Made by a program: the position numbers and the translations under genes. From Desulfatiglandales bacterium (GTDB lineage: Bacteria > Desulfobacterota > DSM-4660 > Desulfatiglandales > Desulfatiglandaceae): a DNA stretch of 64,000 bases. A model generated the notes under the pieces. That model was not told where the DNA came from, ran no database searches, and saw only the letters and a program-made list of their open reading frames with translations. Positions 14,168-24,345 of the stretch are shown here, piece after piece. The stretch covers positions 4,032,001 to 4,096,000 of the forward strand of contig OY762721.1 of NCBI GenBank assembly GCA_963666345.1, read 5' to 3'. Every line of letters begins with the position of its first letter. Positions within the stretch are counted from its first letter, which is position 1.

Positions 14168-15364
14168 TCAGCAGGTGAAGATTTCAACCGGGGTGCTGCT
14201 TATCATCCTGTGACCATCTTTAGTTACAAGAAACACGCTTTCAACACCTGCGGCAAATTCATCCAGAAAGGTCATCTTGGGTTCAAGGGCAAAGACCATG
14301 CCTGACTGAAGAATATCAGTTCTGCCGGCTGCGATAATGGGCCTTTCTATCAGTTCCATGCCGATTCCGTGACCTATGAAGGTGACCCGGTAATCGGAAG
14401 GTCCCAGATAGTAGTCTTCATAACCGAGAGACCTTGCCTTTTTGACGGAAATCCGGAAAAGTTCATCAACCGTTATACCTGCCCTTACATTTTCCAGGAC
14501 CTCGTTGTGTATCTCTATTGCTGCAAGGCATGCGTCCATGGCCTTTTGGGGCATCTTCCCTATTGAAAGCATACGGGTCTCATCAAAGTGGTAGCCGTTG
14601 AGAACCGAGTTGAAATCTATCATAACGGGATCTCCCTTAGCAAAAGGCCTGTATCCGGCGCCGCAGGGAAAGGCGGGGGATGTGCCCTCGCCGCTTGAAG
14701 GGGAATCGAGAAGCCCTATCATGCCCCCGCTTTTTCCGCTCAAAATATGCCAGGCATAGCCCTCTGTGTGATAATCCCTGACCCTCATCATGCCCCCATG
14801 GCCCAGGTTTCGTGCATAGGCCTCAAGCATGCCGGCAAATTCCATTTCGGAAAGCCCTTCCCTCATATTATTTCTTGCATATTCAAAGCAACTGCAAGAA
14901 AGCTCTCCTGTCTTCTCTATCTGCTCTACCTCCCACGCGGATTTTATCATCCTTTGAGAAAGGATCAGGTCAGAGGCATCGAGGACCGTCTGCTCCTTGA
15001 AAATATTTTTTATGAACCGGTACTCCCTTACAGGAATTACATCAAGTTCAAGGCCGATTTTGGCAGGAAGCCGACCGTAGAAATCGCGAATCCTTTGAGG
15101 TGCCTCTTTTATGGATTCGATCCTGACTATCTGCCCTAGCGGGGATTCCTCCATTGCCCTTGGAAGGTACCTCTTTATAAGCAGAAGCGGTTTTCCCTCA
15201 GATGGTATGAAAAGATAGCCCCTCTGGGCCGTGCCGGAGTAGTAGAGGAGATCGACCCTCTGGATTATAAAGAGGGCGTCGATGTCACTATTCTGCAAAC
15301 GATACTGGATTTGTTCTATGCGCCGGGCTATTTCCGGGGCGGGAATTCTGAAATCACAGGTCAT
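14168..15364 (-). CDS. M24 family Xaa-Pro peptidase
   Basis: Creatinase-like N-domain; metal-binding D, D, GHGIG, EP and E motifs. Confidence 0.88.
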   Translation of the reverse strand: MTCDFRIPAPEIARRIEQIQYRLQNSDIDALFIIQRVDLLYYSGTAQRGYLFIPSEGKPLLLIKRYLPRAMEESPLGQIVRIESIKEAPQRIRDFYGRLPAKIGLELDVIPVREYRFIKNIFKEQTVLDASDLILSQRMIKSAWEVEQIEKTGELSCSCFEYARNNMREGLSEMEFAGMLEAYARNLGHGGMMRVRDYHTEGYAWHILSGKSGGMIGLLDSPSSGEGTSPAFPCGAGYRPFAKGDPVMIDFNSVLNGYHFDETRMLSIGKMPQKAMDACLAAIEIHNEVLENVRAGITVDELFRISVKKARSLGYEDYYLGPSDYRVTFIGHGIGMELIERPIIAAGRTDILQSGMVFALEPKMTFLDEFAAGVESVFLVTKDGHRMISSTPVEIFTC

Positions 15365-15570
15365 TTTGTTCCCCTTAGATGAATGGATAATTGTCCGGGT
15401 GGTTTAATAGGCCAATAGTATAATTAATGAAAAGGTTCAAGGGTACGGAGATTCAAGTGTTCTGGTTTTAGGGATTCTTTACTTCGATCGGGCGATGGTT
15501 ATAATATGTGTAAGTTTGAAAATAATCAATGCCCGTGAAGGGCTGGAAAAATAATAATCCGGGGAAAGGT

Positions 15571-16011
15571 ATGCCGACGGAAGAGGGTCTTGTAAAGGAA
15601 ACGGGAAACGGAAAGGCCAGGGTCAGGGTCCAGAGGAGTTCCGCGTGCAAGAGCTGCAGTTCACGTGATCATTGTGAGATAAATTCTTCAAGGGATGTGA
15701 CAGTCGATGTAATTAACGAGATAGGGGCAAAAGAGGGCGACTGGGTGGAACTGAGCGTGCCGGCCGGGTCTTTTCTGAGGCTTTCCCTGGTGGTTTATCT
15801 CCTTCCGGTTGTGGCGCTGATCGTGGGGGCGGTGGTTGGTAACGAGCTGGGAAGGGCCTTTGACATATCCTCAGGTTTTTCATCCGTTGCGGGAGGGGTG
15901 CTAGGTATTATCCTGACCTACTTCATACTGAGAGGGGTAAACAGGCGCTCTGAGAGCTCAAATAAGTACAGCCCCAGGCTGACAAGAATCATATATCGAA
16001 CCGGGGGCTGA
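15571..16011 (+). CDS. rseC: RseC/MucC family membrane protein
   Basis: VRVQRSSACKSCSSRDHC, GAKEGDWVEL, YLLP and two C-terminal TM helices; start at MPTEEG. Confidence 0.85.
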   Translation: MPTEEGLVKETGNGKARVRVQRSSACKSCSSRDHCEINSSRDVTVDVINEIGAKEGDWVELSVPAGSFLRLSLVVYLLPVVALIVGAVVGNELGRAFDISSGFSSVAGGVLGIILTYFILRGVNRRSESSNKYSPRLTRIIYRTGG

Positions 16012-16033
16012 TATCGTTCACATGCAATATCGG

Positions 16034-16075
16034 AAGGCCTCCGGAAAACGCGATTTTTCAGAGGTGCCTTTTTTT
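16034..16075. terminator. Intrinsic terminator-like hairpin between convergent rseC and rnfB
   Basis: Imperfect AAGGC/CTC...GAG/GCCTT stem followed by a T-run. Confidence 0.5.
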
Positions 16076-18135
16076 CAGTTTCTCCTGTAACAGTAGATCC
16101 CGCACTGAAGGCACCGTTTTGCCTCATCCCTTGCCTGTTCCTCTGAAAAACCGAGTTCAACCTCGGTGAAACTTCCCGCCCTTTCAGGCACATGTATGTC
16201 AGGCATCTTGTTCCTGGGAGAGACGGGGACGCTTTTGAGCTCTTCCTCTGTCGCCTCATCCCAGATCTTTTTCCTCAGCTTTTGAGGCGCCTTAACGCGG
16301 GTTTCGCCGTTAAGATAACTGTGGATGGACATGGCCGCCTTTCTTGCTGCACCGAAGGCCTCGACAACTGTGGCGGGCCCGGTTACGCCGTCACCGCCTG
16401 CAAATACCCAGTCAATATTGGACTGGCCCGTGTCTTCATCCGTGTCTATGGTGTTCCACCTGTTAAGCGCCACCTCACCCTCATCACATTCAAGGGCCTC
16501 TTTGTCATACATGGCAAACTGACCTATGGCGGCAATTACATTGTCGAGCTCGATTATGGTTTCGGTTCCTTCCACAGGCACCGGTCTTCTTCTACCGCTT
16601 GCATCAGGCTCTCCCAGTTCCATCTTGAGGAACTCGAGTGCGGTGAGCCTGTTGTTTTCCCCTATCAGACGGGTAGGGGCGGCCAGGAAGTGAAACTTGA
16701 TACCCTCAGCCTCAGCCTCCGCGACCTCGTAATCGGCGGCAGGCATCTCTTTTCTGCTCCTGCGGTAGATAACCGTGACCTCCTCCGCCCCGAGCCTCCA
16801 GGAGGTCCGGGCAGCGTCTATAGCGGTGTTTCCGCCGCCGATTATGGCGACCCTTTTTCCTATCTTTACATCCTTTTCAAGACCCATCTGTATCAGGTAT
16901 TGAGTGCCGGAAAGCACTCCTTCAAGGTCTTCTCCCTCCACCCGCATGTTTCTGCTTCCCCAGGCGCCGATTCCGATAAACACGGCATCAAAGCCCTCAT
17001 CCTTTAGGCTCTGGAGGTTGAAGTCCTTTCCGAATCGTTTGTTCATCCGGACATCAATGTCTCCCAGGCCGGTAATGCCTTCTATCTCCCAGTCAAGGGT
17101 ATTCTTGGGAAGCCTGTATTCAGGGATACCGTAGCGGAGCATCCCTCCCAGCTTGGGCATGGCCTCAAATATGGTTGAGGCGTGTCCCATCCTCCTGAGA
17201 TAATAGGCGGCGGCAAGGCCTGCCGGCCCTCCTCCCACTATAGCCACCTTCTTTTCCGAAAGCGGGGCCTTGGGGGTCTCGTACCTGCTGCCGCTCTTGA
17301 GTTCCTTGTCCGCGCAGAATCGTTTCAGGTGGTTTATGTTGACCGGCTCATCAACGCTGTTTCTCCTGCATTCCGATTCGCAGAAATGGGGGCACACGCG
17401 GCCGATGGAAAGGGGCATGGGCACGCTTTCCTTTATGACCTGAAGCGCCTCTTTGTCACGGCCCTGGTCTATGAGTCTTATGTAAAGCGGTATATCGACC
17501 TGGGCCGGACATCGCTGCTGACATGGGGCAAGGCATTCGTCCAGCACGTTCAGGTGCATGATCCGCAGGGTATTTGATGTGAGATGGATGATGTTTTTGG
17601 GGCAGACCCTTTCGCACGTGCCGCAGCCGGTGCATTTTTCCATGTCCACTACAGGAAGGTTGTCTGGTCCGATCCGAAGTGCGTCAAACGGGCATGCCTT
17701 GACGCATGTTCCGAGTCCCAGACATCCGATCGGGCAGAGCTTTGAGCCTCCGTTTAGAAGCACCGCCGCCCTGCAGTCCTGGACCCCGTCATATCGGAAT
17801 TTCAAATCGGCGTCCTGAACCCCATAGGTGCAGCCCGGTTTTGCTATCTCAGGCTCCCTCAGCTCGAACTTCACACCCATTATCTCGGCGATTTCGGCGG
17901 CCAGTTCAGGTCCGCCCGCAACACAGGATGACGGGGATGCCTTTCCCTTGACAATGGCTTCAGCATTCGCGCTGCAACCGGGCAGACCGCAGCCGCCGCA
18001 ATTGGCCCCAGGCAGGGCATCTTCAATGGCCTCAATCTTCGGGTCCACGTAGACGTAGAATATCTTTGACGCTATTGCGAGTCCGGCACCGACTACTATG
18101 CCGAGTCCGCCCATTACCAAAAGGCCGCCTAACAT
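16075..18135 (-). CDS. rnfB: RnfB fused to a GltD/NfnB-like FAD-dependent NAD(P)H oxidoreductase
   Basis: N-terminal TM anchor, LPGANCGGCGLPGC and ferredoxin motifs, then APCQQRCP/GRVCPHFCESEC, GGGPAG, YGIPEYRLP and GGGNTAID...YRRS; AGGAGG RBS before 18135. Confidence 0.9.
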   Translation of the reverse strand: MLGGLLVMGGLGIVVGAGLAIASKIFYVYVDPKIEAIEDALPGANCGGCGLPGCSANAEAIVKGKASPSSCVAGGPELAAEIAEIMGVKFELREPEIAKPGCTYGVQDADLKFRYDGVQDCRAAVLLNGGSKLCPIGCLGLGTCVKACPFDALRIGPDNLPVVDMEKCTGCGTCERVCPKNIIHLTSNTLRIMHLNVLDECLAPCQQRCPAQVDIPLYIRLIDQGRDKEALQVIKESVPMPLSIGRVCPHFCESECRRNSVDEPVNINHLKRFCADKELKSGSRYETPKAPLSEKKVAIVGGGPAGLAAAYYLRRMGHASTIFEAMPKLGGMLRYGIPEYRLPKNTLDWEIEGITGLGDIDVRMNKRFGKDFNLQSLKDEGFDAVFIGIGAWGSRNMRVEGEDLEGVLSGTQYLIQMGLEKDVKIGKRVAIIGGGNTAIDAARTSWRLGAEEVTVIYRRSRKEMPAADYEVAEAEAEGIKFHFLAAPTRLIGENNRLTALEFLKMELGEPDASGRRRPVPVEGTETIIELDNVIAAIGQFAMYDKEALECDEGEVALNRWNTIDTDEDTGQSNIDWVFAGGDGVTGPATVVEAFGAARKAAMSIHSYLNGETRVKAPQKLRKKIWDEATEEELKSVPVSPRNKMPDIHVPERAGSFTEVELGFSEEQARDEAKRCLQCGIYCYRRN

Positions 18136-18202
18136 GTTGTTCCTCCTGTTTTCATGTGTCCGGGTGTGAGGTCCCGGTACAATATCCTTTATGCAATATT
18201 GT

Positions 18203-18778
18203 TTAGACCATCCCCTTAAAGGCGAAAAAGGCAAGGGAAAGCATGCCGGCGGACACCAGTCCTATTGAAGTGTCCCGAAGTGGCCTGGGCACCCTTGCGA
18301 GTATTATCCTTTCCCTTATGGCAGCAAAAAGTATAAGGGCAAGGCCGAAACCCACGGCATAGCTGAAAGATGATATTAGTGCCTGGATGAAGGTGTACTC
18401 CTCGTTGATATTTATCAGGCACACGCCCATTACCGCGCAGTTTGTGGTTATAAGGGGAAGGAAAATTCCGAGGCCCGCGTAGAGGGCGGGCACCGATTTT
18501 CTGAGAAACATCTCAACAAACTGAACGAGTGATGCTATCACAAGTATGAAGGCCAGGGTCCTCAGATATTCGTAGCCGAATGGTTTGAGTATGAAGTTGT
18601 CCGTTACCCAGGTCATGGCGCCTGCCATGACAAGTACGAATACAACCGCCATGGCCATTCCGATGGCGGTCTCCATCCTTTTTGAAACGCCCAGGAAGGG
18701 ACAATTGCCCAGATACTGCATCAAAAGGATGTTGTTAACGAAGATGCAGCTAACTGCCAGTATTATGTAATCACCCAT
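18203..18778 (-). CDS. rnfA: Rnf subunit A
   Basis: NNILLMQYLGNCPFLG, LGIFLPLITTNCAVMG. Confidence 0.94.
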   Translation of the reverse strand: MGDYIILAVSCIFVNNILLMQYLGNCPFLGVSKRMETAIGMAMAVVFVLVMAGAMTWVTDNFILKPFGYEYLRTLAFILVIASLVQFVEMFLRKSVPALYAGLGIFLPLITTNCAVMGVCLININEEYTFIQALISSFSYAVGFGLALILFAAIRERIILARVPRPLRDTSIGLVSAGMLSLAFFAFKGMV

Positions 18779-18813
18779 GTAACTTCTCCTCGCCCAAGGA
18801 ATAAGGGGCTTGA

Positions 18814-19407
18814 CTATTTTTTACCAAGCATATTCATCAGGCACAGCATTAGACCCAGACATACAAAGGCCCCGGGGGCCTCAACCATGAAGGTAAAGGG
18901 CTTGAAAGAGGGGCCGAAAAGTTCCATATTGAGCAGCGTTCCATATCCAAGGGCCTCCCTGAACATGGCAAGTACGGTAAGGGAAAGGGTAAAACCTATT
19001 CCTATACCCAGACCGTCGGCAAAAGATGGAATAACACTGTTTTTTGCCGCAAATGCCTCGGCGCGACCCAGGACTATGCAGTTTACGACTATAAGGGGGA
19101 TAAATATGCCCAGTTTGAGAAACAGGGGGTATGTGTAGGCCTGCATCACCAGTTCCACAACCGTGACAAAAGTCGCTATTACAACTATATAGCAGGCTAT
19201 CCTCACTTTTTTGGGAATTACATTTCTCAGAAGTGAGATTATTATATTGGAGCAGACCAGAACAAAGGTTGTGGCTACGCCCATACCGATGCCGTTTTCC
19301 ACGGTCTTTGTCACCGCCAGGGTAGGGCAGAGCCCCAGAACAAGGCGGAAAGGAGGAATCTCAGCCCAAAGCCCCTTTGCAAATTCCTGAACAACACTCT
19401 TTGCCAT
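18814..19407 (-). CDS. rnfE: Rnf subunit E
   Basis: LGLCPTLAVT, FIPLIVVNCIVLGRAEAFA. Confidence 0.94.
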   Translation of the reverse strand: MAKSVVQEFAKGLWAEIPPFRLVLGLCPTLAVTKTVENGIGMGVATTFVLVCSNIIISLLRNVIPKKVRIACYIVVIATFVTVVELVMQAYTYPLFLKLGIFIPLIVVNCIVLGRAEAFAAKNSVIPSFADGLGIGIGFTLSLTVLAMFREALGYGTLLNMELFGPSFKPFTFMVEAPGAFVCLGLMLCLMNMLGKK

Positions 19408-19487
19408 GACCCGTTTTCTCCCGTTTTAGCATGACGAGCCCCTGTGTGAGCGCCCCTGGTATCAGGGGCCTCCGGGGTTCGGCTATT

Positions 19488-20069
19488 TTAACCCATCTGT
19501 TCAATTATCTTGTCTTTGAGCCTGGAATAGATCTGCGATAAATCGGTAACCGCCGCACAAACTCCACGTGAGGTAAATGTCGCCCCGCTTATCGCGTCTA
19601 TATCTCCTCCGTCGGTCCTCACCTTGAAGGGCGCCTTCATTGAAAGGCCCTTGAACTGGGACACGAACGAGGGATCGGTCTTCGCCCTGGAGCCCACACC
19701 CGGGGTTTCGCTGTGGGTGGTGACGCCTACTCCCACTATCTCGTCCGTCTCTATGTTCACGGCCGCTATGACTCCCACATCTCCGCCATAGCCCTTTCCG
19801 TAAGACTCAAAGGCAACCGTATTCTTCTTGCCGTTGAATTGGCCGATGAAGAAATTGCGTTCCATTTTGCCGTCCATTATCTTGAAACGGTCCACAAGGG
19901 GATCATTGGTGCAGCCCTCCATTATCTGTTTGATTGTAGGACCCTTTACGAATTTGAGCTGCTGATACTCTATTTTTTCCTGTGTCCCGTTTCGAACGGT
20001 CGCAAGCAGCCCCCCGGACACCGCGCTGAAGATGGTGATAACGATAAAAAGTCTAAACATCTCACGCAT
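19488..20069 (-). CDS. rnfG: Rnf subunit G
   Basis: N-terminal TM helix, GYGG, HSETPGVG and the flavinylation motif DAISGATFTS; start at MREMF. Confidence 0.93.
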   Translation of the reverse strand: MREMFRLFIVITIFSAVSGGLLATVRNGTQEKIEYQQLKFVKGPTIKQIMEGCTNDPLVDRFKIMDGKMERNFFIGQFNGKKNTVAFESYGKGYGGDVGVIAAVNIETDEIVGVGVTTHSETPGVGSRAKTDPSFVSQFKGLSMKAPFKVRTDGGDIDAISGATFTSRGVCAAVTDLSQIYSRLKDKIIEQMG

Positions 20070-21030
20070 GTTCAACCCCCCTACCCAGGGCCTTCGGCCT
20101 GATTTTGTCAATAAGCGGATTAGCCACGTTCATAAGCAGGATGGTGAAAACCACACCATCAGTGAAAGCGCCCAGGTTGCGTACCAGGATCGTGAGAATT
20201 CCCGCCCCTGCCCCGTAGATAAGCATGGGAATGAAATTGACCGGAGAAGAGGAATCCTCCGGTGCAAGGAAAAAGGCGCCGATCAGCGTATAACCTGTAA
20301 AGATGTGAAACAGAGGCTGGGCGTATTTTGCCGAATCAATCATATTGAATACCAGAGCGGTGACAAATATACCCGCAAGAAAGGATACAGGGATCTCCCA
20401 GCGCACATGACCTCTCAGAATGAGATATATTCCTCCGACAATAAGACCCAGACCGAAGGTCGATCCGATCCCGCCCACCTGTCTGCCCATGATAAGTCCC
20501 GCCAGACTGTAATCGGCCGCTGCTTCCGCGCCGAAGTGCTTGACCGCTCCCAGAGGAAATAGCATGTAAAAGTCAAAATCGTAGTTTACCAGGGCTTCGT
20601 CAAAGCGCAGTATACCCTTCCATGAAAGCAGGAGGATCGCTACCGCCACAAGTGTGGGGTTAAATGGGTTGCATCCTACCCCTCCGTATATGAGCTTGCC
20701 TATTATTATCGCCGCAAATGTCCCTATAAGGACTACCCACCAAGGCAGGGTGGCGGGCATAAGCATAGAGAAAAGGAGTCCTATCAAAGCGGCATTACCG
20801 TCACCTATGGTAACCGGCCTTTTCATCACCAGGTTCATAAGCAATTCCCATAGCATGGCGCACGACACTGAAAAGGCCACAACAGCAAGGGCCGGAATCC
20901 CGTACTGAAAAATGCCGAAGATAACCGCCGGAAGTGCGGCAAGCATGATATCGTAACTCTTTTTAGTAATAGAGCTTCCATTGTGCCAGAAAGGTGCATA
21001 GGAGCTTACTAACAGCTTGTTGCTACGCAT
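20062..21030 (-). CDS. rnfD: Rnf subunit D (divergent)
   Basis: Polytopic membrane protein with GGVGCNPFNP, GAFF and ILLMN...PLID; lies between rnfC and rnfG. Confidence 0.9.
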   Translation of the reverse strand: MRSNKLLVSSYAPFWHNGSSITKKSYDIMLAALPAVIFGIFQYGIPALAVVAFSVSCAMLWELLMNLVMKRPVTIGDGNAALIGLLFSMLMPATLPWWVVLIGTFAAIIIGKLIYGGVGCNPFNPTLVAVAILLLSWKGILRFDEALVNYDFDFYMLFPLGAVKHFGAEAAADYSLAGLIMGRQVGGIGSTFGLGLIVGGIYLILRGHVRWEIPVSFLAGIFVTALVFNMIDSAKYAQPLFHIFTGYTLIGAFFLAPEDSSSPVNFIPMLIYGAGAGILTILVRNLGAFTDGVVFTILLMNVANPLIDKIRPKALGRGVEHA

Positions 21031-22300
21031 TTGATAATTCCTCCGCGTTATTTATCCTGGCGTATTCATGCTTTCCCAGCATGATATAGTGAAATATCGG
21101 AATCTTCGCCACACAGACATAGGTGCAAAGGCCGCATTCAATGCATGAAAGAAGGTCGTAATCGTTTGCCGCCTCTTCATAAAGGCCGTTTTCAAGGAGC
21201 CTTACAAGCATGTTGACCGGCACTTTTGCAGGACAGGCCCTTACGCATTCGCCGCAGTTTATGCAGTGGCTGTCGGAGTTCCAGGCTATCCTGCCGCCGT
21301 CCTGAACCATGAGGGCGTCAGTGTCATGCCTTATTGCGATATCCTCCGAATAGACCGCATTTCCCATCATAGGGCCTCCCATTACTATCCTGTCCCCGTA
21401 GCGGACTTCGATGCCGAGGGCCTGAAATATATGGCTTATAGGCGTGCCTATTCTTGCCTTCACTGTGGTGGCGCGGTTATCCCTGTCTATCACGGTTATA
21501 ATCTTGTCAACGGGAATCCTCCCGGAATCAAGGGCTGATGCAAGGGCGACAACCCCTTCGGCGTTTATGACGCCTATTCCTGATGACCTGATATCCCTTG
21601 CGTTGGATATCTTTATGCCCAGTACATCTTTGAGGATCATTACGGGAAGGGTATCAGGGTAAGCGCCTTTTACCTCTTCAATCCGTATACCCGTTTCCGC
21701 TGCTGAATCTGCAAGTTCAGGAGGAACGAGAAATAACGTTTTTTTGAGGGGAAAGATCCCTTTTAGATATTCAATACCTTTAGAGATCAGCTCTATTTGG
21801 GTTCCCGCCGCCACCTGATTGGTCGTGACAAGCAGGTCTCTGTCTATACCGAAGACCAGCAGTGTATCAACCGCGATGTCATCTCTTATGAAAAGAGAGG
21901 GGTCCACTCCCGGCAGAATGGATAAGAATTCAAGGGCCTTTTCGCTTAACCCGCCTGTGAAATCAAGCCCTTCATCGAACTGATCTTTACCTGAGACTTC
22001 GATGTTGACAGCCTTGTATTCTGATCCGTTTGTGCCTGTAAAATCAGATATCTCCTTTATGGAGCCTGTGACGGTTGAGATCAAGTATTCACCGCCCCCT
22101 TCATGAATCATTATCTTCTGTCCGGTTTTTACATGCTCTCCTAAAGCAGGCAACAGCCTGCCCGGGCTCTTACCGGTTTCCAGATACAGGGTAACCTTGG
22201 ACGGCAGAGGTAGATCCACGATTTTATGAACGGCAAAATCATCAATTACCGGATATTTCAGCTTAGGTCTTGCCAAACTGAAAAACGGTTTTTTTACCAT
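21023..22300 (-). CDS. rnfC: Rnf subunit C (divergent)
   Basis: GEHVKTGQ N-domain, SLBB-like RIGTPI, GGPMMG, CINCGECVRACP and CIECGLCTYVC. Confidence 0.87.
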   Translation of the reverse strand: MVKKPFFSLARPKLKYPVIDDFAVHKIVDLPLPSKVTLYLETGKSPGRLLPALGEHVKTGQKIMIHEGGGEYLISTVTGSIKEISDFTGTNGSEYKAVNIEVSGKDQFDEGLDFTGGLSEKALEFLSILPGVDPSLFIRDDIAVDTLLVFGIDRDLLVTTNQVAAGTQIELISKGIEYLKGIFPLKKTLFLVPPELADSAAETGIRIEEVKGAYPDTLPVMILKDVLGIKISNARDIRSSGIGVINAEGVVALASALDSGRIPVDKIITVIDRDNRATTVKARIGTPISHIFQALGIEVRYGDRIVMGGPMMGNAVYSEDIAIRHDTDALMVQDGGRIAWNSDSHCINCGECVRACPAKVPVNMLVRLLENGLYEEAANDYDLLSCIECGLCTYVCVAKIPIFHYIMLGKHEYARINNAEELSNA

Positions 22301-22361
22301 TTGAACCTCCTATCAAAAAAAGATAGTCGCACTGAAGCATCCATGAATTTATTGCCGCATG

Positions 22362-22736
22362 CTACAGCACATGGCATTCCGAACAATTAACCGCCCCGGC
22401 CCCGTATTCCTCATGACACCCCTTGCACTGGAGGTGAAAGGCGTCTGATCTTTTTACAGGGTCTTCACTGTCCGGTTCGTGGCAGTTCCCGCATGCCTCA
22501 GGTTTTGAATCCCCGCCTTCCCACATGTGATGACAGTCCTCACATGAGAGCCCGTATCCGTCCTCGCCGGCGTGCTCTTTGTGGCTGAAAAGGACATCCC
22601 CGGCGCTGTTTTTGAGCATTATCCTGACCGGTTCTTCAGGAGAGGTTACCGGAAAGACGGCATAGCATACTACTCCCACGACAAGGAGCAGGGCGGCAAG
22701 AAGAAAGGCGAAAATCTTTTCACGCTTGACATTCAT
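22362..22736 (-). CDS. Tetraheme class III (c3-type) cytochrome c, exported or membrane-anchored
   Basis: N-terminal hydrophobic segment, FSHKEH, and four CxxCH motifs (CEDCH, CGNCH, CKGCH, CSECH). Confidence 0.9.
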   Translation of the reverse strand: MNVKREKIFAFLLAALLLVVGVVCYAVFPVTSPEEPVRIMLKNSAGDVLFSHKEHAGEDGYGLSCEDCHHMWEGGDSKPEACGNCHEPDSEDPVKRSDAFHLQCKGCHEEYGAGAVNCSECHVL

Positions 22737-22947
22737 TTTATATTTTCCTTGGTTTCTGTCTTTTTATGAAGATATCACCGCATAAGATAAAAAAGGCTTT
22801 CAGGCTTGTCAGGGCGGGGGCATCTGTAACGGTATGTTTTAGGAAGGTCAAATAATGTTGGTTTTTCGCCATCTGATTATCCAGCAGATCACGGGTTCCC
22901 CGGAACCTGGAGATCAGGGATCCTGCGGGAAGTTAAATAATAGGTTA

Positions 22948-22999
22948 GTGCCCGGTATAACTTTCGCCTGATTAGCTCAACCTTTCGGTTCAGCGGACA
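22948..22999 (-). ncRNA. Candidate structured leader RNA of the cytochrome-rnf operon
   Basis: On the minus strand, UGUCCG/CGGGCA closes two GAAA-tetraloop hairpins; no family recognised. Confidence 0.3.
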
Positions 23000-23466
23000 G
23001 ATTGTTCTTCACTCCCGCATCTAAATCAAGTATTTTCACAGGAAGTTCCAAACTTGAAAACTTTTATCTCTAAGAAAGGCCTCTTGTCAAGGGGCTTTTG
23101 GGTGATGATAATTTGATTCGATTCCTGCTTGGGGGAGGGCCGTTACAAGGCTAAGCGGCTTAAAAGAATACGTTTTTAATGTGGCAGGGGTATCAATTGA
23201 CCTTGATTGACATTTTGCCTGAAAAGTAGAGAATGTCTATCTTGTTTTCATCACCAAATCGAGGGTTTCCTTAAAGAGGTCTCGGCGGTCGGTTTTGACA
23301 TTCACCTTAACAGCCTGTTTATTCGTAACTTTGCCGGCTGGCTGTGTCACATTCCCGCCGGTGGCTCTGATTCGGTTAAGGGGCTGTTCCAGGATGGAAC
23401 CCTATAACATAGACAAGATTGTTAGAGGGTATTTTTTTCACGGTAAAATGGGAGGAAGGGCGGCAG

Positions 23467-24345
23467 ATGTTTAATTACGAAGGACCCATATACAGACCTC
23501 CGAGTGAAGCCGACAGTCTGCTGATACAGGCCACGGTAGGCTGCCCTCACAATAAATGCACATTCTGCATGGTCTATAAAAAAGGCCCTCCATACAGGGT
23601 AAGACCTGTTGAGGAGATAAAGGATGATTTGGAAAAGGCGCGGAAGCTTTACGGCGCCAATGTGAGGAGCCTTTTCTTCCCCGCCGGCAACACCATTGCC
23701 ATGCCTACCGATCAACTGGCGGTTATCTGTGCGCACGCACGGGGTATTTTTCCTGCCCTTGAAAGGATAACCGTGTATGGCTCATCAAGATATATCTTCA
23801 ATAAAGGGCCTGTGGAATTAAGGAGACTGAGGGGCAGCGGGTTGTCCAGGATCCATGTGGGTCTTGAAAGCGGTGATGACGAGGTGCTGAGACGCATAAA
23901 AAAAGGTTCTGATTCGGAAGAACAGATTCAGGCGGGAGTCTGGGTGATGGAGGCGGGAATAGAACTGAGTGAATATGTCATGCTCGGGATAGGAGGCAGG
24001 GAGCGAAGCCTGGAGCACGCTGAACTGACGGCTAAATGCCTGAACGCAATTAATCCCGACTTCATCAGGATACGCACCTTTCTGCCGAAGGTGGATACAC
24101 TGCTTTTGCATCAGATAAGAAAGGGGCGTTTTAAGGTTCTTTCCCCCCATGAGGTGCTGCGTGAAACCCGAACGATTATAGAGGGTCTGGAGGTCGGTTC
24201 AATGATATTAAGTGATCACTACACAAATTATGTGGATCTGCACGGCAGGATGCCTTCGGAAAAAGGCAGGATTCTTGCCGCGATCGAAGAGGCCCTGGGA
24301 AGGGATGAGGGACTGTTCAGATCTGTCTACGTGGGTACGCAATAA
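23467..24345 (+). CDS. Radical SAM protein of unknown function
   Basis: YEGPIYRPPSE...GCPHNKCTFC (CxxxCxxC), GLESG. Confidence 0.9.
   Translation: MFNYEGPIYRPPSEADSLLIQATVGCPHNKCTFCMVYKKGPPYRVRPVEEIKDDLEKARKLYGANVRSLFFPAGNTIAMPTDQLAVICAHARGIFPALERITVYGSSRYIFNKGPVELRRLRGSGLSRIHVGLESGDDEVLRRIKKGSDSEEQIQAGVWVMEAGIELSEYVMLGIGGRERSLEHAELTAKCLNAINPDFIRIRTFLPKVDTLLLHQIRKGRFKVLSPHEVLRETRTIIEGLEVGSMILSDHYTNYVDLHGRMPSEKGRILAAIEEALGRDEGLFRSVYVGTQ

What the first reader, a model, noticed from the sequence alone, without database searches (positions are those of the whole stretch)
15571..22736. Re-wired Rnf complex: possible periplasmic cytochrome c3 to cytoplasmic NAD(P)(H) conduit rather than a ferredoxin:NAD+ loop
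Established: canonical Rnf passes electrons ferredoxin -> RnfB Fe-S -> RnfA/E [2Fe-2S] -> RnfG FMN -> RnfD FMN/riboflavin -> RnfC Fe-S/FMN -> NAD+. Seen here: the first half is intact (RnfB clusters, both Cys motifs in RnfA and in RnfE, RnfG SGAT). The second half is eroded: RnfD has LFPL where ATPL is expected, and RnfC lacks the GxGGAGFP and NxAECEP motifs. RnfB has gained an FAD/NAD(P)H module, and a tetraheme c3 gene heads the operon. Inference: these correlated changes suggest electrons cross the membrane once, between NAD(P)(H) at RnfB and a periplasmic cytochrome via RnfG, with RnfC/D as scaffold or serving another partner. Cytochrome-associated Rnf clusters are known in sulfate reducers and Methanosarcina; I do not know whether this coordinated cofactor loss has been described.
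Basis: partly seen in the sequence, partly recalled or inferred. Interest (0 to 1): 0.88.

Follow-up and report, generated by a model that had tools for sequence, protein, structure and literature searches.

The report
Cytochrome-linked Rnf2-type complex of sulfate reducer
This operon encodes the already described "Rnf2" variant of the Rnf membrane redox pump of sulfate-reducing bacteria, which takes NAD(P)H at a different subunit and carries its own small haem protein; how it works is still untested.

Summary
On the minus strand lie a tetrahaem cytochrome gene, rnfCDGEA and an RnfB fused to an NfnB/GltD-like FAD/NAD(P)H module. RnfC lacks both NADH/FMN motifs. RnfD has Phe where FMN is normally attached to Thr.

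This is not a one-off erosion. All 120 listed RnfC homologues lack the motifs, and so do 56 of 81 Rnf clusters I compared (a non-random sample). It is also not new: the large RnfB, the domain-poor RnfC and the cluster cytochrome were published for Desulfobacula toluolica and Desulfococcus multivorans ("Tol2-type", "Rnf2"; PMC5109826, PMC11887813), with function untested.

Details I did not see in print:
- The whole FMN pocket of RnfD is rebuilt.
- The riboflavin ligands of RnfD and all eight Fe-S cysteines of RnfC are kept, so RnfC/D are not dead scaffold.
- The cytochrome has a conserved membrane anchor and is predicted to sit on RnfD over the lost flavin site (score 0.76, best control 0.00).
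- The genetically studied D. alaskensis G20-type cluster shares the RnfC and RnfD losses.

Best reading: an ion-translocating NAD(P)H:cytochrome c oxidoreductase with a second, unknown redox port at RnfC. It is a new member of a known kind, of moderate interest.

The parts
22362..22736 (-). Tetrahaem class III cytochrome c with an N-terminal hydrophobic anchor. It is the first gene of the operon.
   Evidence: It has 4 CxxCH and matches PF02085 at 47.7 bits. The TmcA model scores only 63.8 against a cut-off of 114. In 21 homologues P36, R38, G46, V48, F50, H52, H55 and all haem motifs are invariant, and G21 and Y25 inside the hydrophobic stretch are at least 90% conserved. It is predicted to pack on RnfD.
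21023..22300 (-). RnfC variant. It keeps the RnfC fold and two [4Fe-4S] motifs but has no NADH/FMN motifs.
   Evidence: AF2 model has pLDDT 88.9. Foldseek gives TM 0.81 to 8ahx_C and 9eri_C and 0.64-0.69 to NqrA. The 8 Cys are conserved in 81/81 clusters.
20062..21030 (-). RnfD variant. The FMN pocket is rebuilt (Phe158 for Thr, Val130 for Arg, Ser190 for Glu) and the riboflavin-ligand positions are kept (Asn124, Glu258).
   Evidence: PF03116 scores 291.8 bits. Alignments.
19488..20069 (-). RnfG with an intact FMN-attachment motif (SGAT, Thr178 of the ORF). The likely start is the ATG at 20069; the ORF reaches 20111.
   Evidence: NF045876 RnfG_DVU2794 scores 248 bits (cut-off 205), aligned from ORF residue 15. 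Motif.
18814..19407 (-). RnfE, with the two conserved Cys (27, 110).
   Evidence: TIGR01948 scores 248.3 against 213.4. Cys conservation.
18203..18778 (-). RnfA, with the two conserved Cys (26, 114).
   Evidence: TIGR01943 scores 248.3 against 229.3. Cys conservation.
17548..18135 (-). RnfB part of the fusion: membrane helix, PF04060 Fe-S domain and a 2x[4Fe-4S] domain. The likely start is the ATG at 18135; the ORF reaches 18234.
   Evidence: 9eri_B gives 3.1e-56 over query 37-221. The consensus of 33 long RnfB starts at ORF residue 34.
16075..17547 (-). NfnB/GltD-like module fused to RnfB: 2x[4Fe-4S] (Fer4_20), an FAD site, an NAD(P)H site with YRRS, and a C-terminal tail.
   Evidence: Pyr_redox_2 gives 4.9e-33 and Fer4_20 7e-23. 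PRK12771 scores 515.3 bits. PDB matches are 9n5u_A 9.1e-139, 9bov_A 2.5e-137, 8oh5_C 7.4e-128 and 4ylf_B 4e-100. Both dinucleotide motifs are conserved in 33 long RnfB.
15529..16011 (+). RseC/MucC-like membrane protein, convergent with rnfB. It may be an accessory gene; this is not shown.
   Evidence: PF04246 gives 2.1e-33. An RseC-like gene lies within 3 kb in 9/34 cytochrome-clade clusters, 15/22 other non-canonical clusters and 0/25 canonical clusters.
22737..23418 (.). 682-base region upstream of the cytochrome gene, presumably promoter and leader.
   Evidence: No Rfam match. The consensus promoter scan is not clearly above chance. RNA-library contigs of 3 of 4 runs of one study lie on 22726-23036.

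Best explanation
Identity (well supported): this is a member of the published Rnf2 (Tol2-type) class of Rnf complexes of Desulfobacterales sulfate reducers, with a seventh subunit, a membrane-anchored tetrahaem cytochrome c.

Mechanism (inferred, untested):
1. NAD(P)H is oxidised at the FAD of the NfnB-like module fused to RnfB.
2. Electrons pass through its two [4Fe-4S] clusters and the RnfB clusters to the [2Fe-2S] centre held by RnfA/RnfE. There, as in canonical Rnf, the electron and a Na+ (or H+) move outward together.
3. The electron then goes to the FMN of RnfG.
4. Instead of FMN on RnfD, it goes to the haems of the cytochrome that sits on RnfD over the filled-in flavin pocket.
5. From the haems, electrons leave to periplasm-facing acceptors: the genome's second c3, encoded next to dsrMKJOP, and so to sulfite reduction.

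The return leg of the canonical U-shaped path would thus be handed to another complex. The kept riboflavin ligands of RnfD and the two Fe-S clusters of RnfC form a second, still redox-active port to an unknown cytoplasmic partner. The logic parallels Na+-NQR: a flavin NADH module at the RnfB position and an RnfC relative without an NADH site. The complex may also run in reverse, from cytochrome to NAD(P)+.
For: Shown here:
- Domain content and motif losses.
- 0/120 homologues carry the RnfC motifs.
- The window's genome has only this one RnfD/NqrB homologue, so this is its only Rnf/Nqr.
- In 25/25 canonical clusters RnfD has R130, D152, A157, T158 and E190. All are replaced in the cytochrome-linked clade.
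- The RnfA/E cysteines and the RnfG Thr are kept.
- The fused module is most like the NADPH-binding NfnB-type modules of solved NfnABC/StnABC and NfnAB. Both nucleotide motifs are conserved in 33 long RnfB.
- 33/34 clusters of the clade have a cytochrome gene beside rnfC, with an invariant anchor-proximal motif.
- Complex prediction for RnfD + RnfG + cytochrome + 4 haem: score 0.76 against a best of 3 controls of 0.00. That mark was reached by 116 of 157 solved complexes and 2 of 215 mismatched pairs. These counts hold only roughly here, because I used my own alignments and haems rode along. The runs agree in at least 65% of contacts and the partner pLDDT is at least 81.
- In that model, cytochrome residues 3-33 contact RnfD 45-63, 73-81 and 94-97. 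Residues 36-40, 47, 49 and 53 contact RnfD 142-151, 156-157 and 165, the loop of the lost Thr158.
- The genome has dsrAB, one ApbE and a second c3 next to dsrMKJOP.

From papers:
- Na+ and the electron travel together through RnfA/E, and RnfD only carries electrons (PMC11889175, passages).
- M. acetivorans Rnf does not use NAD(P) and is modelled as passing electrons from RnfG to a cytochrome (PMC4023990, passages).
Against: - There are no biochemical data for any member.
- All 8 Fe-S cysteines of RnfC (55/55 non-canonical clusters) and the riboflavin-ligand positions are conserved. A pure one-crossing path does not explain this.
- In D. alaskensis G20, whose cluster shares the RnfC/RnfD losses, mutants of the cytochrome gene dhcA had no fitness defect where rnf mutants did (PMC4215793, passages). 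The cytochrome may therefore be dispensable, or replaceable by soluble c3.
- Two non-canonical clades (21 clusters) have a cytochrome gene nearby in only 3 cases. The RnfC change therefore does not require one.
- The authors who named Rnf2 draw it as linking the NADH and ferredoxin pools (PMC11887813, passage).
- From my own knowledge, not from a call: c3-type haems lie close to NAD(P)H in potential, so the driving force would be small.
- The anchor helix could raise the complex score for unspecific reasons.
Confidence: 0.5

Rival explanations
1. Full U-shaped path with a haem relay. Electrons from NAD(P)H go out through RnfA/E and RnfG. They cross the cytochrome haems, which stand in for the lost FMN of RnfD. 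They return through RnfD riboflavin to the two [4Fe-4S] clusters of RnfC and on to a cytoplasmic acceptor of higher potential than NAD(P)H, such as DsrC, a flavodoxin or rubredoxin, or a docking enzyme. The periplasmic exit is only a side branch.
For: The RnfC cysteines are kept in 55/55 non-canonical clusters. The RnfC fold is kept (TM 0.81). The riboflavin-ligand positions keep Asn in 33/34 and an acidic residue in 34/34. Their mutation kills A. woodii Rnf (PMC11889175, passage). The cytochrome is predicted to lie on RnfD exactly over the lost FMN site. PMC5109826 calls for an unknown RnfC partner.
Against: No candidate partner is encoded in the cluster. Clades without a cytochrome also lack R130 and E190, so a haem relay cannot be general. 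Haem-to-riboflavin distances could not be measured here.
Confidence: 0.28
2. Ferredoxin:NAD(P)+ oxidoreductase with swapped ends. NAD(P)(H) binds at the RnfB fusion and ferredoxin at the exposed clusters of RnfC. The overall reaction is as in canonical Rnf, and the cytochrome is accessory.
For: This is how Rnf2 is drawn by the group that named it, linking the NADH and ferredoxin pools (PMC11887813, passage). Clades Y and Z have the long RnfB and the degenerate RnfC mostly without a cytochrome. The window's genome has no other Rnf.
Against: This is an inference from the coupling described in PMC11889175. Flow from RnfB to RnfC is the direction that exports Na+. With NAD(P)H at RnfB and ferredoxin at RnfC, the downhill redox direction would import Na+ and the uphill one would export it. 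That conserves no energy unless the coupling is also inverted. This reading also does not explain the cytochrome that is conserved in 33/34 clusters.
Confidence: 0.12
3. A decaying or non-functional Rnf remnant.
For: It has lost three canonical cofactor sites.
Against: All frames are intact. The replacement motifs are conserved across 120 homologues and 34 clusters. It is the genome's only Rnf. Relatives form the proteins constitutively and the complex is in the Desulfobacteraceae core genome (PMC5109826; PMC11887813).
Confidence: 0.02

Closest known systems
Rnf2 / 'Tol2-type' Rnf of Desulfobacula toluolica Tol2, Desulfococcus multivorans and Desulfobacterium autotrophicum (PMC5109826; PMC11887813; original report Wohlbrand et al. 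2016, Proteomics, not read)
   Same: RnfB of about 700 aa with NAD-binding sites. RnfC without the NADH-ubiquinone-oxidoreductase and SLBB domains. A small acidic cytochrome encoded in the cluster. Gene order cyt-rnfCDGEAB. The host is a sulfate reducer whose named relatives are Desulfobacterales.
   Different: Nothing essential; this is a further member. Its RnfD is at most 73% and its RnfC at most 53% identical to the others found. The RnfD flavin-pocket loss, the cytochrome anchor and its predicted seat on RnfD are not in the text I could read. The supplement of PMC11887813 (fig. S18) could not be opened.
dhcA-rnfCDGEABF of Desulfovibrio alaskensis G20 (PMC4215793, PMC4841214)
   Same: L172 carries exact matches to all 12 primers published for that operon. 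Its RnfC lacks both motifs and its RnfD has Asn at the Thr site. Its cytochrome has the same anchor and the same P-x-R...F-x-H-x-x-H motif. These clusters lie in the same RnfD clade as the window.
   Different: RnfB is short (289 aa) with no NAD(P)H module, so ferredoxin is the likely cytoplasmic partner. The cytochrome has ten haems. apbE (rnfF) is in the operon. It is treated in the literature as a ferredoxin:NADH oxidoreductase. Attempts to show that activity in vesicles were 'unsuccessful' (PMC4841214, passage).
Rnf-MmcA of Methanosarcina acetivorans (PMC4023990; PMC12174285)
   Same: A multihaem cytochrome c gene is co-transcribed with rnfCDGEAB. The complex does not use NAD(P) at RnfC. 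RnfG is modelled as donor to the cytochrome.
   Different: It is archaeal. Ferredoxin is the donor at a normal RnfB, and the acceptor is methanophenazine or extracellular. I did not compare sequences: the window's RnfC matches the Methanosarcina RnfC model only over its C-terminal half.
Na+-translocating NADH:quinone oxidoreductase (Nqr)
   Same: It works alike in logic. A flavin-dependent NADH module sits at the RnfB position (NqrF). The RnfC relative (NqrA) has no NADH site. The membrane core is homologous (PMC12174285 and PMC9588780, passages).
   Different: NqrF is unrelated to the NfnB-like module. NqrA has lost the Fe-S clusters, whereas this RnfC keeps both. NqrB keeps its FMN. The acceptor is a quinone and there is no cytochrome. 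The window's subunits score far better on Rnf than on Nqr models.
NfnB-type NADPH modules of NfnAB, NfnABC and StnABC (PDB 5jca, 4ylf, 9n5u, 9bov, 8oh5)
   Same: The C-terminal 490 residues of the RnfB fusion align end to end (E 1e-98 to 1e-139). They include both [4Fe-4S] motifs and the FAD and NAD(P)H motifs.
   Different: Here the module is fused to a membrane-anchored RnfB. Whether its FAD bifurcates electrons as in Nfn is unknown.

Membership tests
Rnf complex (RnfABCDGE, ferredoxin:NAD+ oxidoreductase) | Six homologous subunits encoded together | tested here: met
   RnfD, G, E and A pass their NCBIfam cut-offs. RnfB-N matches PRK07118-type and TIGR01944 models. RnfC is recognised but below the cut-off.
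Rnf complex (RnfABCDGE, ferredoxin:NAD+ oxidoreductase) | Cys ligands of the RnfA/RnfE [2Fe-2S] centre | tested here: met
   RnfA C26 and C114 and RnfE C27 and C110 are present.
Rnf complex (RnfABCDGE, ferredoxin:NAD+ oxidoreductase) | Covalent FMN site on RnfG (S-G-A-T) | tested here: met
   DAISGATFTS is present, and G176, A177 and T178 are invariant in 21 sequences. Flavinylation itself is not testable. One ApbE gene is in the genome.
Rnf complex (RnfABCDGE, ferredoxin:NAD+ oxidoreductase) | Covalent FMN site on RnfD (Thr in ..A-T-P-L) | tested here: not met
   Phe158 stands at that position. It is Thr in 25/25 canonical clusters and in 0/34 of the cytochrome-linked clade (6 have Ser).
Rnf complex (RnfABCDGE, ferredoxin:NAD+ oxidoreductase) | NADH/FMN site in RnfC (GxGGAGFP, ECEP; Complex1_51K domain) | tested here: not met
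   There is no Pfam hit. Both motifs are replaced. TIGR01945 scores 166.7, below 245.95.
Rnf complex (RnfABCDGE, ferredoxin:NAD+ oxidoreductase) | Two [4Fe-4S] clusters in RnfC | tested here: met
   All 8 Cys are present and conserved in 81/81 clusters.
Rnf complex (RnfABCDGE, ferredoxin:NAD+ oxidoreductase) | Ferredoxin:NAD+ activity coupled to Na+/H+ transport | not testable with these tools
   This needs biochemistry.
Rnf2 / Tol2-type Rnf (as described in PMC5109826) | RnfB of about 700 aa with a nucleotide-binding domain | tested here: met
   The ORF is 719 aa, or 686 aa from the likely start. Pyr_redox_2 and Fer4_20 are present. Homologues are 658-719 aa.
Rnf2 / Tol2-type Rnf (as described in PMC5109826) | [quoted passage not shown] | tested here: met
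   There are no PF01512 or SLBB hits. By fold the SLBB-like part is still present.
Rnf2 / Tol2-type Rnf (as described in PMC5109826) | Small cytochrome c gene in the cluster | tested here: met
   A 124-aa tetrahaem gene lies 61 bases upstream of rnfC.
Class III cytochrome c3 (PF02085) | Four CxxCH with bis-His ligation in about 100 residues | tested here: met
   PF02085 scores 47.7 bits. There are 4 CxxCH and 4 further conserved His: H52, H55, H70 and H101.
Class III cytochrome c3 (PF02085) | Soluble periplasmic protein with a cleaved signal peptide | tested here: inconclusive
   No signal-peptide tool was available. The hydrophobic stretch has conserved residues and is modelled as a helix packed on RnfD, which suggests an uncleaved anchor.
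TmcA (acidic tetrahaem cytochrome c3 of the Tmc complex) | NCBIfam equivalog score | tested here: not met
   NF045722 scores 63.8 bits against a cut-off of 114.
Na+-NQR | NqrA-F subunits, NqrF FAD/2Fe-2S module, cofactor-free NqrA | tested here: not met
   All Nqr models score far below their cut-offs and below the Rnf models. RnfC keeps its Fe-S clusters.

The most novel reading that the evidence does not exclude
The whole cytochrome-linked Rnf clade may not be a ferredoxin:NAD+ oxidoreductase at all. It comprises 34 of the 81 clusters compared, including the 10-haem clusters like that of the genetically studied D. alaskensis G20 type (L172, analysed separately). A membrane-anchored multihaem cytochrome would replace the FMN of RnfD as the outer relay. 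The result would be an ion-translocating, three-port hub. It would join a cytoplasmic low-potential donor (NAD(P)H through the fused module, or ferredoxin where RnfB is short), the periplasmic cytochrome c pool and a still unknown partner at the Fe-S clusters of RnfC. This would be the missing membrane link between cytoplasmic carriers and periplasmic electron flow in sulfate reducers. It would also change how the rnf phenotypes of Desulfovibrio are read.
Probability: 0.3. Interest if true: 0.75.

Novelty: new member of a known kind. Interest (0 to 1): 0.42.

Why it matters
Rnf2 is reported to be in the core genome of Desulfobacteraceae and to be made abundantly and constitutively (PMC11887813, passages). 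That family carries out much of the carbon oxidation in marine sediments. Its reaction has never been measured.

If it moves electrons from NAD(P)H to periplasm-facing cytochromes while exporting Na+, energy budgets of complete-oxidising sulfate reducers would need to be redrawn. The same would hold, with ferredoxin, for the Desulfovibrio type.

The sequence data give concrete, cheap tests. Flavin fluorescence should appear on RnfG only. Haem should co-purify. NAD(P)H:cytochrome activity should be measurable.

Tried and rejected
1. Test of correlated evolution of the four traits on the RnfD tree. The fewest changes are 2 (RnfC motif), 4 (RnfD Thr), 3 (long RnfB) and 5 (cytochrome). Only 1-4 independent pairs exist, so no test is possible.
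2. Cytochrome against RnfG. The complex job listed no RnfG residue among contacts with low expected error.
3. RNA evidence. Four metatranscriptome runs of one marine-sediment study hold short contigs (115-290 bases, 95-100% alike) on parts of rnfB, rnfA, rnfE, rnfC and the region upstream of the cytochrome gene. The shares are small (0.05-0.07) and contigs show neither strand nor level. DNA can be present in such libraries, and a close relative cannot be excluded. Uncovered parts mean nothing.
4. Rfam scan of 15000-23600 at E up to 0.1 gave no match.
5. The promoter and terminator consensus scan found 14 and 13 sites, against 7.6 +/- 2.6 and 9.6 +/- 3.4 in shuffles. It gave no clear operon boundaries.
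6. Papers that could not be read. Pereira et al. 2011 could not be fetched. Wohlbrand et al. 2016 (Proteomics) was not fetched or read. The supplement of PMC11887813 with the Rnf2 text and fig. S18 could not be read. Any of these may already describe the RnfD change or the role of the cytochrome.
7. Earlier findings of this scan: none on these words.
8. Searches for a printed statement that RnfC of sulfate reducers lacks the NADH site, or that RnfB is fused to an NfnB-like module. Only PMC5109826 and PMC11887813 state it. None mentions RnfD in the text I saw.
9. Decay or pseudogene reading: rejected (see rivals).
10. The 80 loci were chosen by me, not at random. They were the 22 closest to the window, then a spread of intermediates, second copies and high-scoring canonical ones, out of 216 PF03116 matches in 161 of 401 genomes. 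The proportions are therefore not frequencies.


Full report
WHAT IS THERE. Searches show a seven-gene cluster on the minus strand. It holds a 124-residue protein with four CxxCH motifs (PF02085, 47.7 bits), then RnfC, RnfD, RnfG, RnfE and RnfA, and last a 719-residue ORF. The first third of that ORF is RnfB: a membrane helix, the PF04060 Fe-S domain and a two-cluster ferredoxin domain. The rest is a GltD/NfnB-type module (Fer4_20, Pyr_redox_2; PRK12771, 515 bits). The likely starts of RnfB (ATG at 18135) and RnfG (ATG at 20069) lie inside the listed ORFs. The family models and the consensus of homologues begin there. An RseC-like gene lies convergent to rnfB.

HMMER alignments to the solved complexes were made.
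- In RnfC, 'lpgvdpslf' stands where C. tetanomorphum RnfC has GMGGATFPT, and 'vfgid..rdll' stands where it has NAAECEPY.
- In RnfD, 'mlFpl' stands where RnfD has 'taTpl'. That Thr (Thr153 in C. tetanomorphum, Thr156 in A. woodii) carries the covalent FMN (PMC9588780 and PMC11889175, passages).
- Pfam finds no Complex1_51K or SLBB domain in RnfC, and TIGR01945 scores 166.7 against a cut-off of 245.95.
- RnfG keeps SGAT.
- RnfA and RnfE keep the two cysteines each that hold the [2Fe-2S] centre.

IT IS A CONSERVED TYPE, NOT EROSION. None of the 120 listed homologues of RnfC (47-53% identical, all from Thermodesulfobacteriota or Desulfobacterales where named) has either motif. They share 'LPGxPDF' and 'NGxDxDLLxTTNQ' instead. 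The window's genome (4.16 Mb, one contig) has only one RnfD/NqrB homologue, so this is its only Rnf or Nqr.

THE COMPARISON SET. In 401 genomes of the phylum, 161 have such a homologue. Of the other 400, 22 have an RnfD at least 52% identical to the window's. Twelve of those 22 have at least one further PF03116 match and ten do not. I fetched 80 loci. They were chosen, not random: the 22 closest, then intermediates, second copies and high-scoring canonical ones. I tabulated them together with the window, 81 clusters in all.
- 25 clusters are canonical. They have both RnfC motifs, Thr in RnfD, a short RnfB (24; none found in 1) and no cytochrome.
- 56 lack the RnfC motifs.

THE RnfD TREE (quick method, SH-aLRT support only).
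- The canonical clusters form one clade (support 100), together with one odd cluster, L085.
- The window sits in a clade of 34 (support 98) in which 33 have a cytochrome gene beside rnfC, with 4, 5, 6, 8 or 10 haems, and none has Thr at the FMN site.
- A second clade (11 clusters) has the long RnfB, keeps Thr in 9 and has a cytochrome in 1.
- A third group (10 clusters, weakly supported) has Pro or Glu at the site and mixed RnfB lengths.
- Inside the window's own subclade (23 clusters) the fused RnfB was found in 13. Of the rest, four contigs end too early. Two show no RnfB in 18 kb. Two have a short RnfB-like gene on the other strand; a third such gene lies on one of the truncated contigs. 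Two carry NfnA-like and NfnB-like genes directly after rnfA.

So the traits go together at the level of clades but not strictly. The few changes on the tree (2 to 5 per trait) allow no test.

ALREADY IN PRINT. [quoted passage not shown]
- Its RnfB is about 700 residues with NAD+-binding sites.
- D. multivorans and D. autotrophicum have this type (Rnf2) beside an A. woodii-type Rnf1.
- A 15-kDa acidic cytochrome is encoded in the rnf2 cluster.
- Both complexes are formed under all conditions tested.

PMC11887813 (passages) places Rnf2 in the core genome of Desulfobacteraceae. [quoted passage not shown] The idea that the cytochrome next to rnf in Desulfovibrio passes periplasmic electrons to Rnf is also old. 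It is cited in PMC4841214 to Matias 2005 and Pereira 2011, which I did not read. The core of the finding is therefore a rediscovery. The function 'awaits experimental verification' in the authors' words.

DETAILS THAT I DID NOT FIND IN THE TEXT I COULD READ.
(a) The whole FMN pocket of RnfD is rebuilt, not only the Thr. Arg130, Asp152, Ala157, Thr158 and Glu190 (window numbering; Arg130 and Glu185 of C. tetanomorphum surround the flavin ring) are invariant in 25/25 canonical clusters. They are replaced in the cytochrome-linked clade, mostly by Trp/Ile/Tyr, Phe/Leu, Leu/Val, Tyr/Ser/Phe and Ser/Ala. Arg130 and Glu190 are also replaced in the clade that keeps Thr.
(b) The positions that bind riboflavin in A. 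woodii RnfD are N123 and D249, which are essential there. They keep Asn in 33/34 and Glu or Asp in 34/34 of the clade.
(c) All eight Fe-S cysteines of RnfC are kept in 25/25 canonical and 55/55 non-canonical clusters. The AlphaFold model (pLDDT 88.9) superposes on solved RnfC at TM 0.81, better than on NqrA at 0.64-0.69. The RnfD-RnfC arm therefore still looks redox-active.
(d) The cytochrome is not an ordinary soluble c3. Its hydrophobic N-terminus has conserved residues. It is followed by an invariant P-x-R...G-x-V-x-F-x-H-x-x-H stretch, found from the four-haem to the ten-haem forms.
(e) The complex prediction for RnfD, RnfG, the cytochrome and four haems supports binding.
- The score is 0.76 (three runs 0.78, 0.76, 0.76), against a best of three controls of 0.00.
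- That mark was reached by 116 of 157 solved complexes and 2 of 215 mismatches.
- The runs agree in at least 65% of contacts and the partner pLDDT is at least 81.
- The counts hold only roughly, because my own alignments and riding haems were used.
- The anchor packs on RnfD residues 45-63, 73-81 and 94-97.
- The invariant stretch lies on RnfD 142-151, 156-157 and 165, the periplasmic loop that held the FMN Thr.
- No solved Rnf-cytochrome complex appeared among the PDB matches, so recall of a known structure is unlikely. A hydrophobic helix may still score for unspecific reasons.
(f) The Desulfovibrio alaskensis G20-type cluster shares the losses.
- One of 401 genomes of a sister family matched a published G20 primer. 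All 12 published primers then matched that locus in order (L172).
- Its RnfC has neither motif but keeps both Fe-S motifs.
- Its RnfD has Asn at the Thr site, Trp for Arg130 and Ser for Glu190.
- Its RnfB is short (289 residues).
- Its ten-haem DhcA has the same anchor motif.
- This does not fit the description of the Desulfovibrionaceae enzyme as classical Rnf1.
- It may bear on the report that ferredoxin:NAD+ coupling could not be shown in G20 vesicles (PMC4841214).

THE FUSED MODULE. Residues 213-716 of the RnfB ORF align with the NfnB-type part of the large subunits of solved NfnABC and StnABC transhydrogenases (E 9e-139 to 7e-128) and with NfnB of NfnAB (1e-100, 9e-98). Both [4Fe-4S] motifs, the FAD motif and the second dinucleotide motif followed by YRRS are conserved in 33 long RnfB. 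From my own knowledge, the Arg pair suggests NADPH. No call tested this.

HOW IT MOST LIKELY WORKS (inference). In A. woodii, the electron and Na+ move outward together through RnfA/E, and RnfD only brings the electron back (PMC11889175). The window keeps the outward leg completely and puts an NAD(P)H dehydrogenase at its entrance. It removes the first station of the return leg (FMN on RnfD) and the exit (FMN and NADH site on RnfC). It places a haem protein where the first station was.

Flow from RnfB outward is the Na+-exporting direction. With NAD(P)H at the RnfB end, the acceptor must therefore be more positive than NAD(P)H. This is the logic of Nqr rather than of Rnf. It argues against a simple ferredoxin:NAD(P)+ enzyme with swapped ends.

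The genome is that of a sulfite/sulfate reducer (dsrAB). It has only one other class III cytochrome, encoded next to dsrMKJOP. I therefore favour NAD(P)H to RnfG-FMN to the anchored cytochrome, and on to periplasm-facing acceptors. The electron's way back into the cell would be taken over by another complex.

The conserved riboflavin site and RnfC clusters say that a second port exists. Whether it is the main route (the haem relay model) or a branch cannot be decided here. Against an obligatory role for the cytochrome, dhcA mutants of G20 grew normally where rnf mutants did not (PMC4215793).

VERDICT. The object is a new member of the published Rnf2/Tol2-type class. The remaining interest lies in the unmeasured reaction, the predicted seat of the cytochrome on RnfD and the link to the Desulfovibrio enzyme.

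Noticed in passing
G000:C1:2819221-2823441 (L173:8221-12441, - strand): A 1406-residue protein joins the same NfnB/GltD-like NAD(P)H module (PRK12771, 583 bits, residues 75-572) to HdrA-like parts. It lies between the genome's second c3 gene with dsrMKJOP and hdrC/hdrB-like genes. This organism therefore uses the module a second time as an electron entry.
   Followed up: partly
window 15529-16011 (+) and loci: An RseC/MucC-like gene lies within 3 kb of 24 of 56 non-canonical Rnf clusters and of 0 of 25 canonical ones in my non-random sample. In the window and in L010, L012 and L014 it is convergent with the fused rnfB.
   Followed up: partly
L029 and L030 (L030:11472-13936): In two clusters of the window's subclade, rnfA is followed by separate NfnA-like (331 aa) and NfnB-like (467 aa) genes instead of a fused RnfB. 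This may be a stage before or after the fusion.
   Followed up: partly
window 22737-23418: A 682-base gap lies before the cytochrome gene. RNA-library contigs of three runs lie on 22726-23036, which would fit a long leader. There is no Rfam match.
   Followed up: partly
rows G305:C22 and G309:C50: Two close RnfD homologues are read through one in-frame stop each (TAG and TGA). This could be a sequencing error, a broken gene or recoding. I did not look further.
   Followed up: no
L100: A contig labelled as a Chloroflexota MAG encodes an RnfC of this type (42% identical). This could be mis-binning or gene transfer.
   Followed up: no
L055, L056 and others of the clade with long RnfB and no cytochrome: This clade keeps Thr in RnfD (as E-T-P-L) but has lost Arg130 and Glu190 and the Ala before the Thr. 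Whether RnfD is still flavinylated there is open.
   Followed up: no
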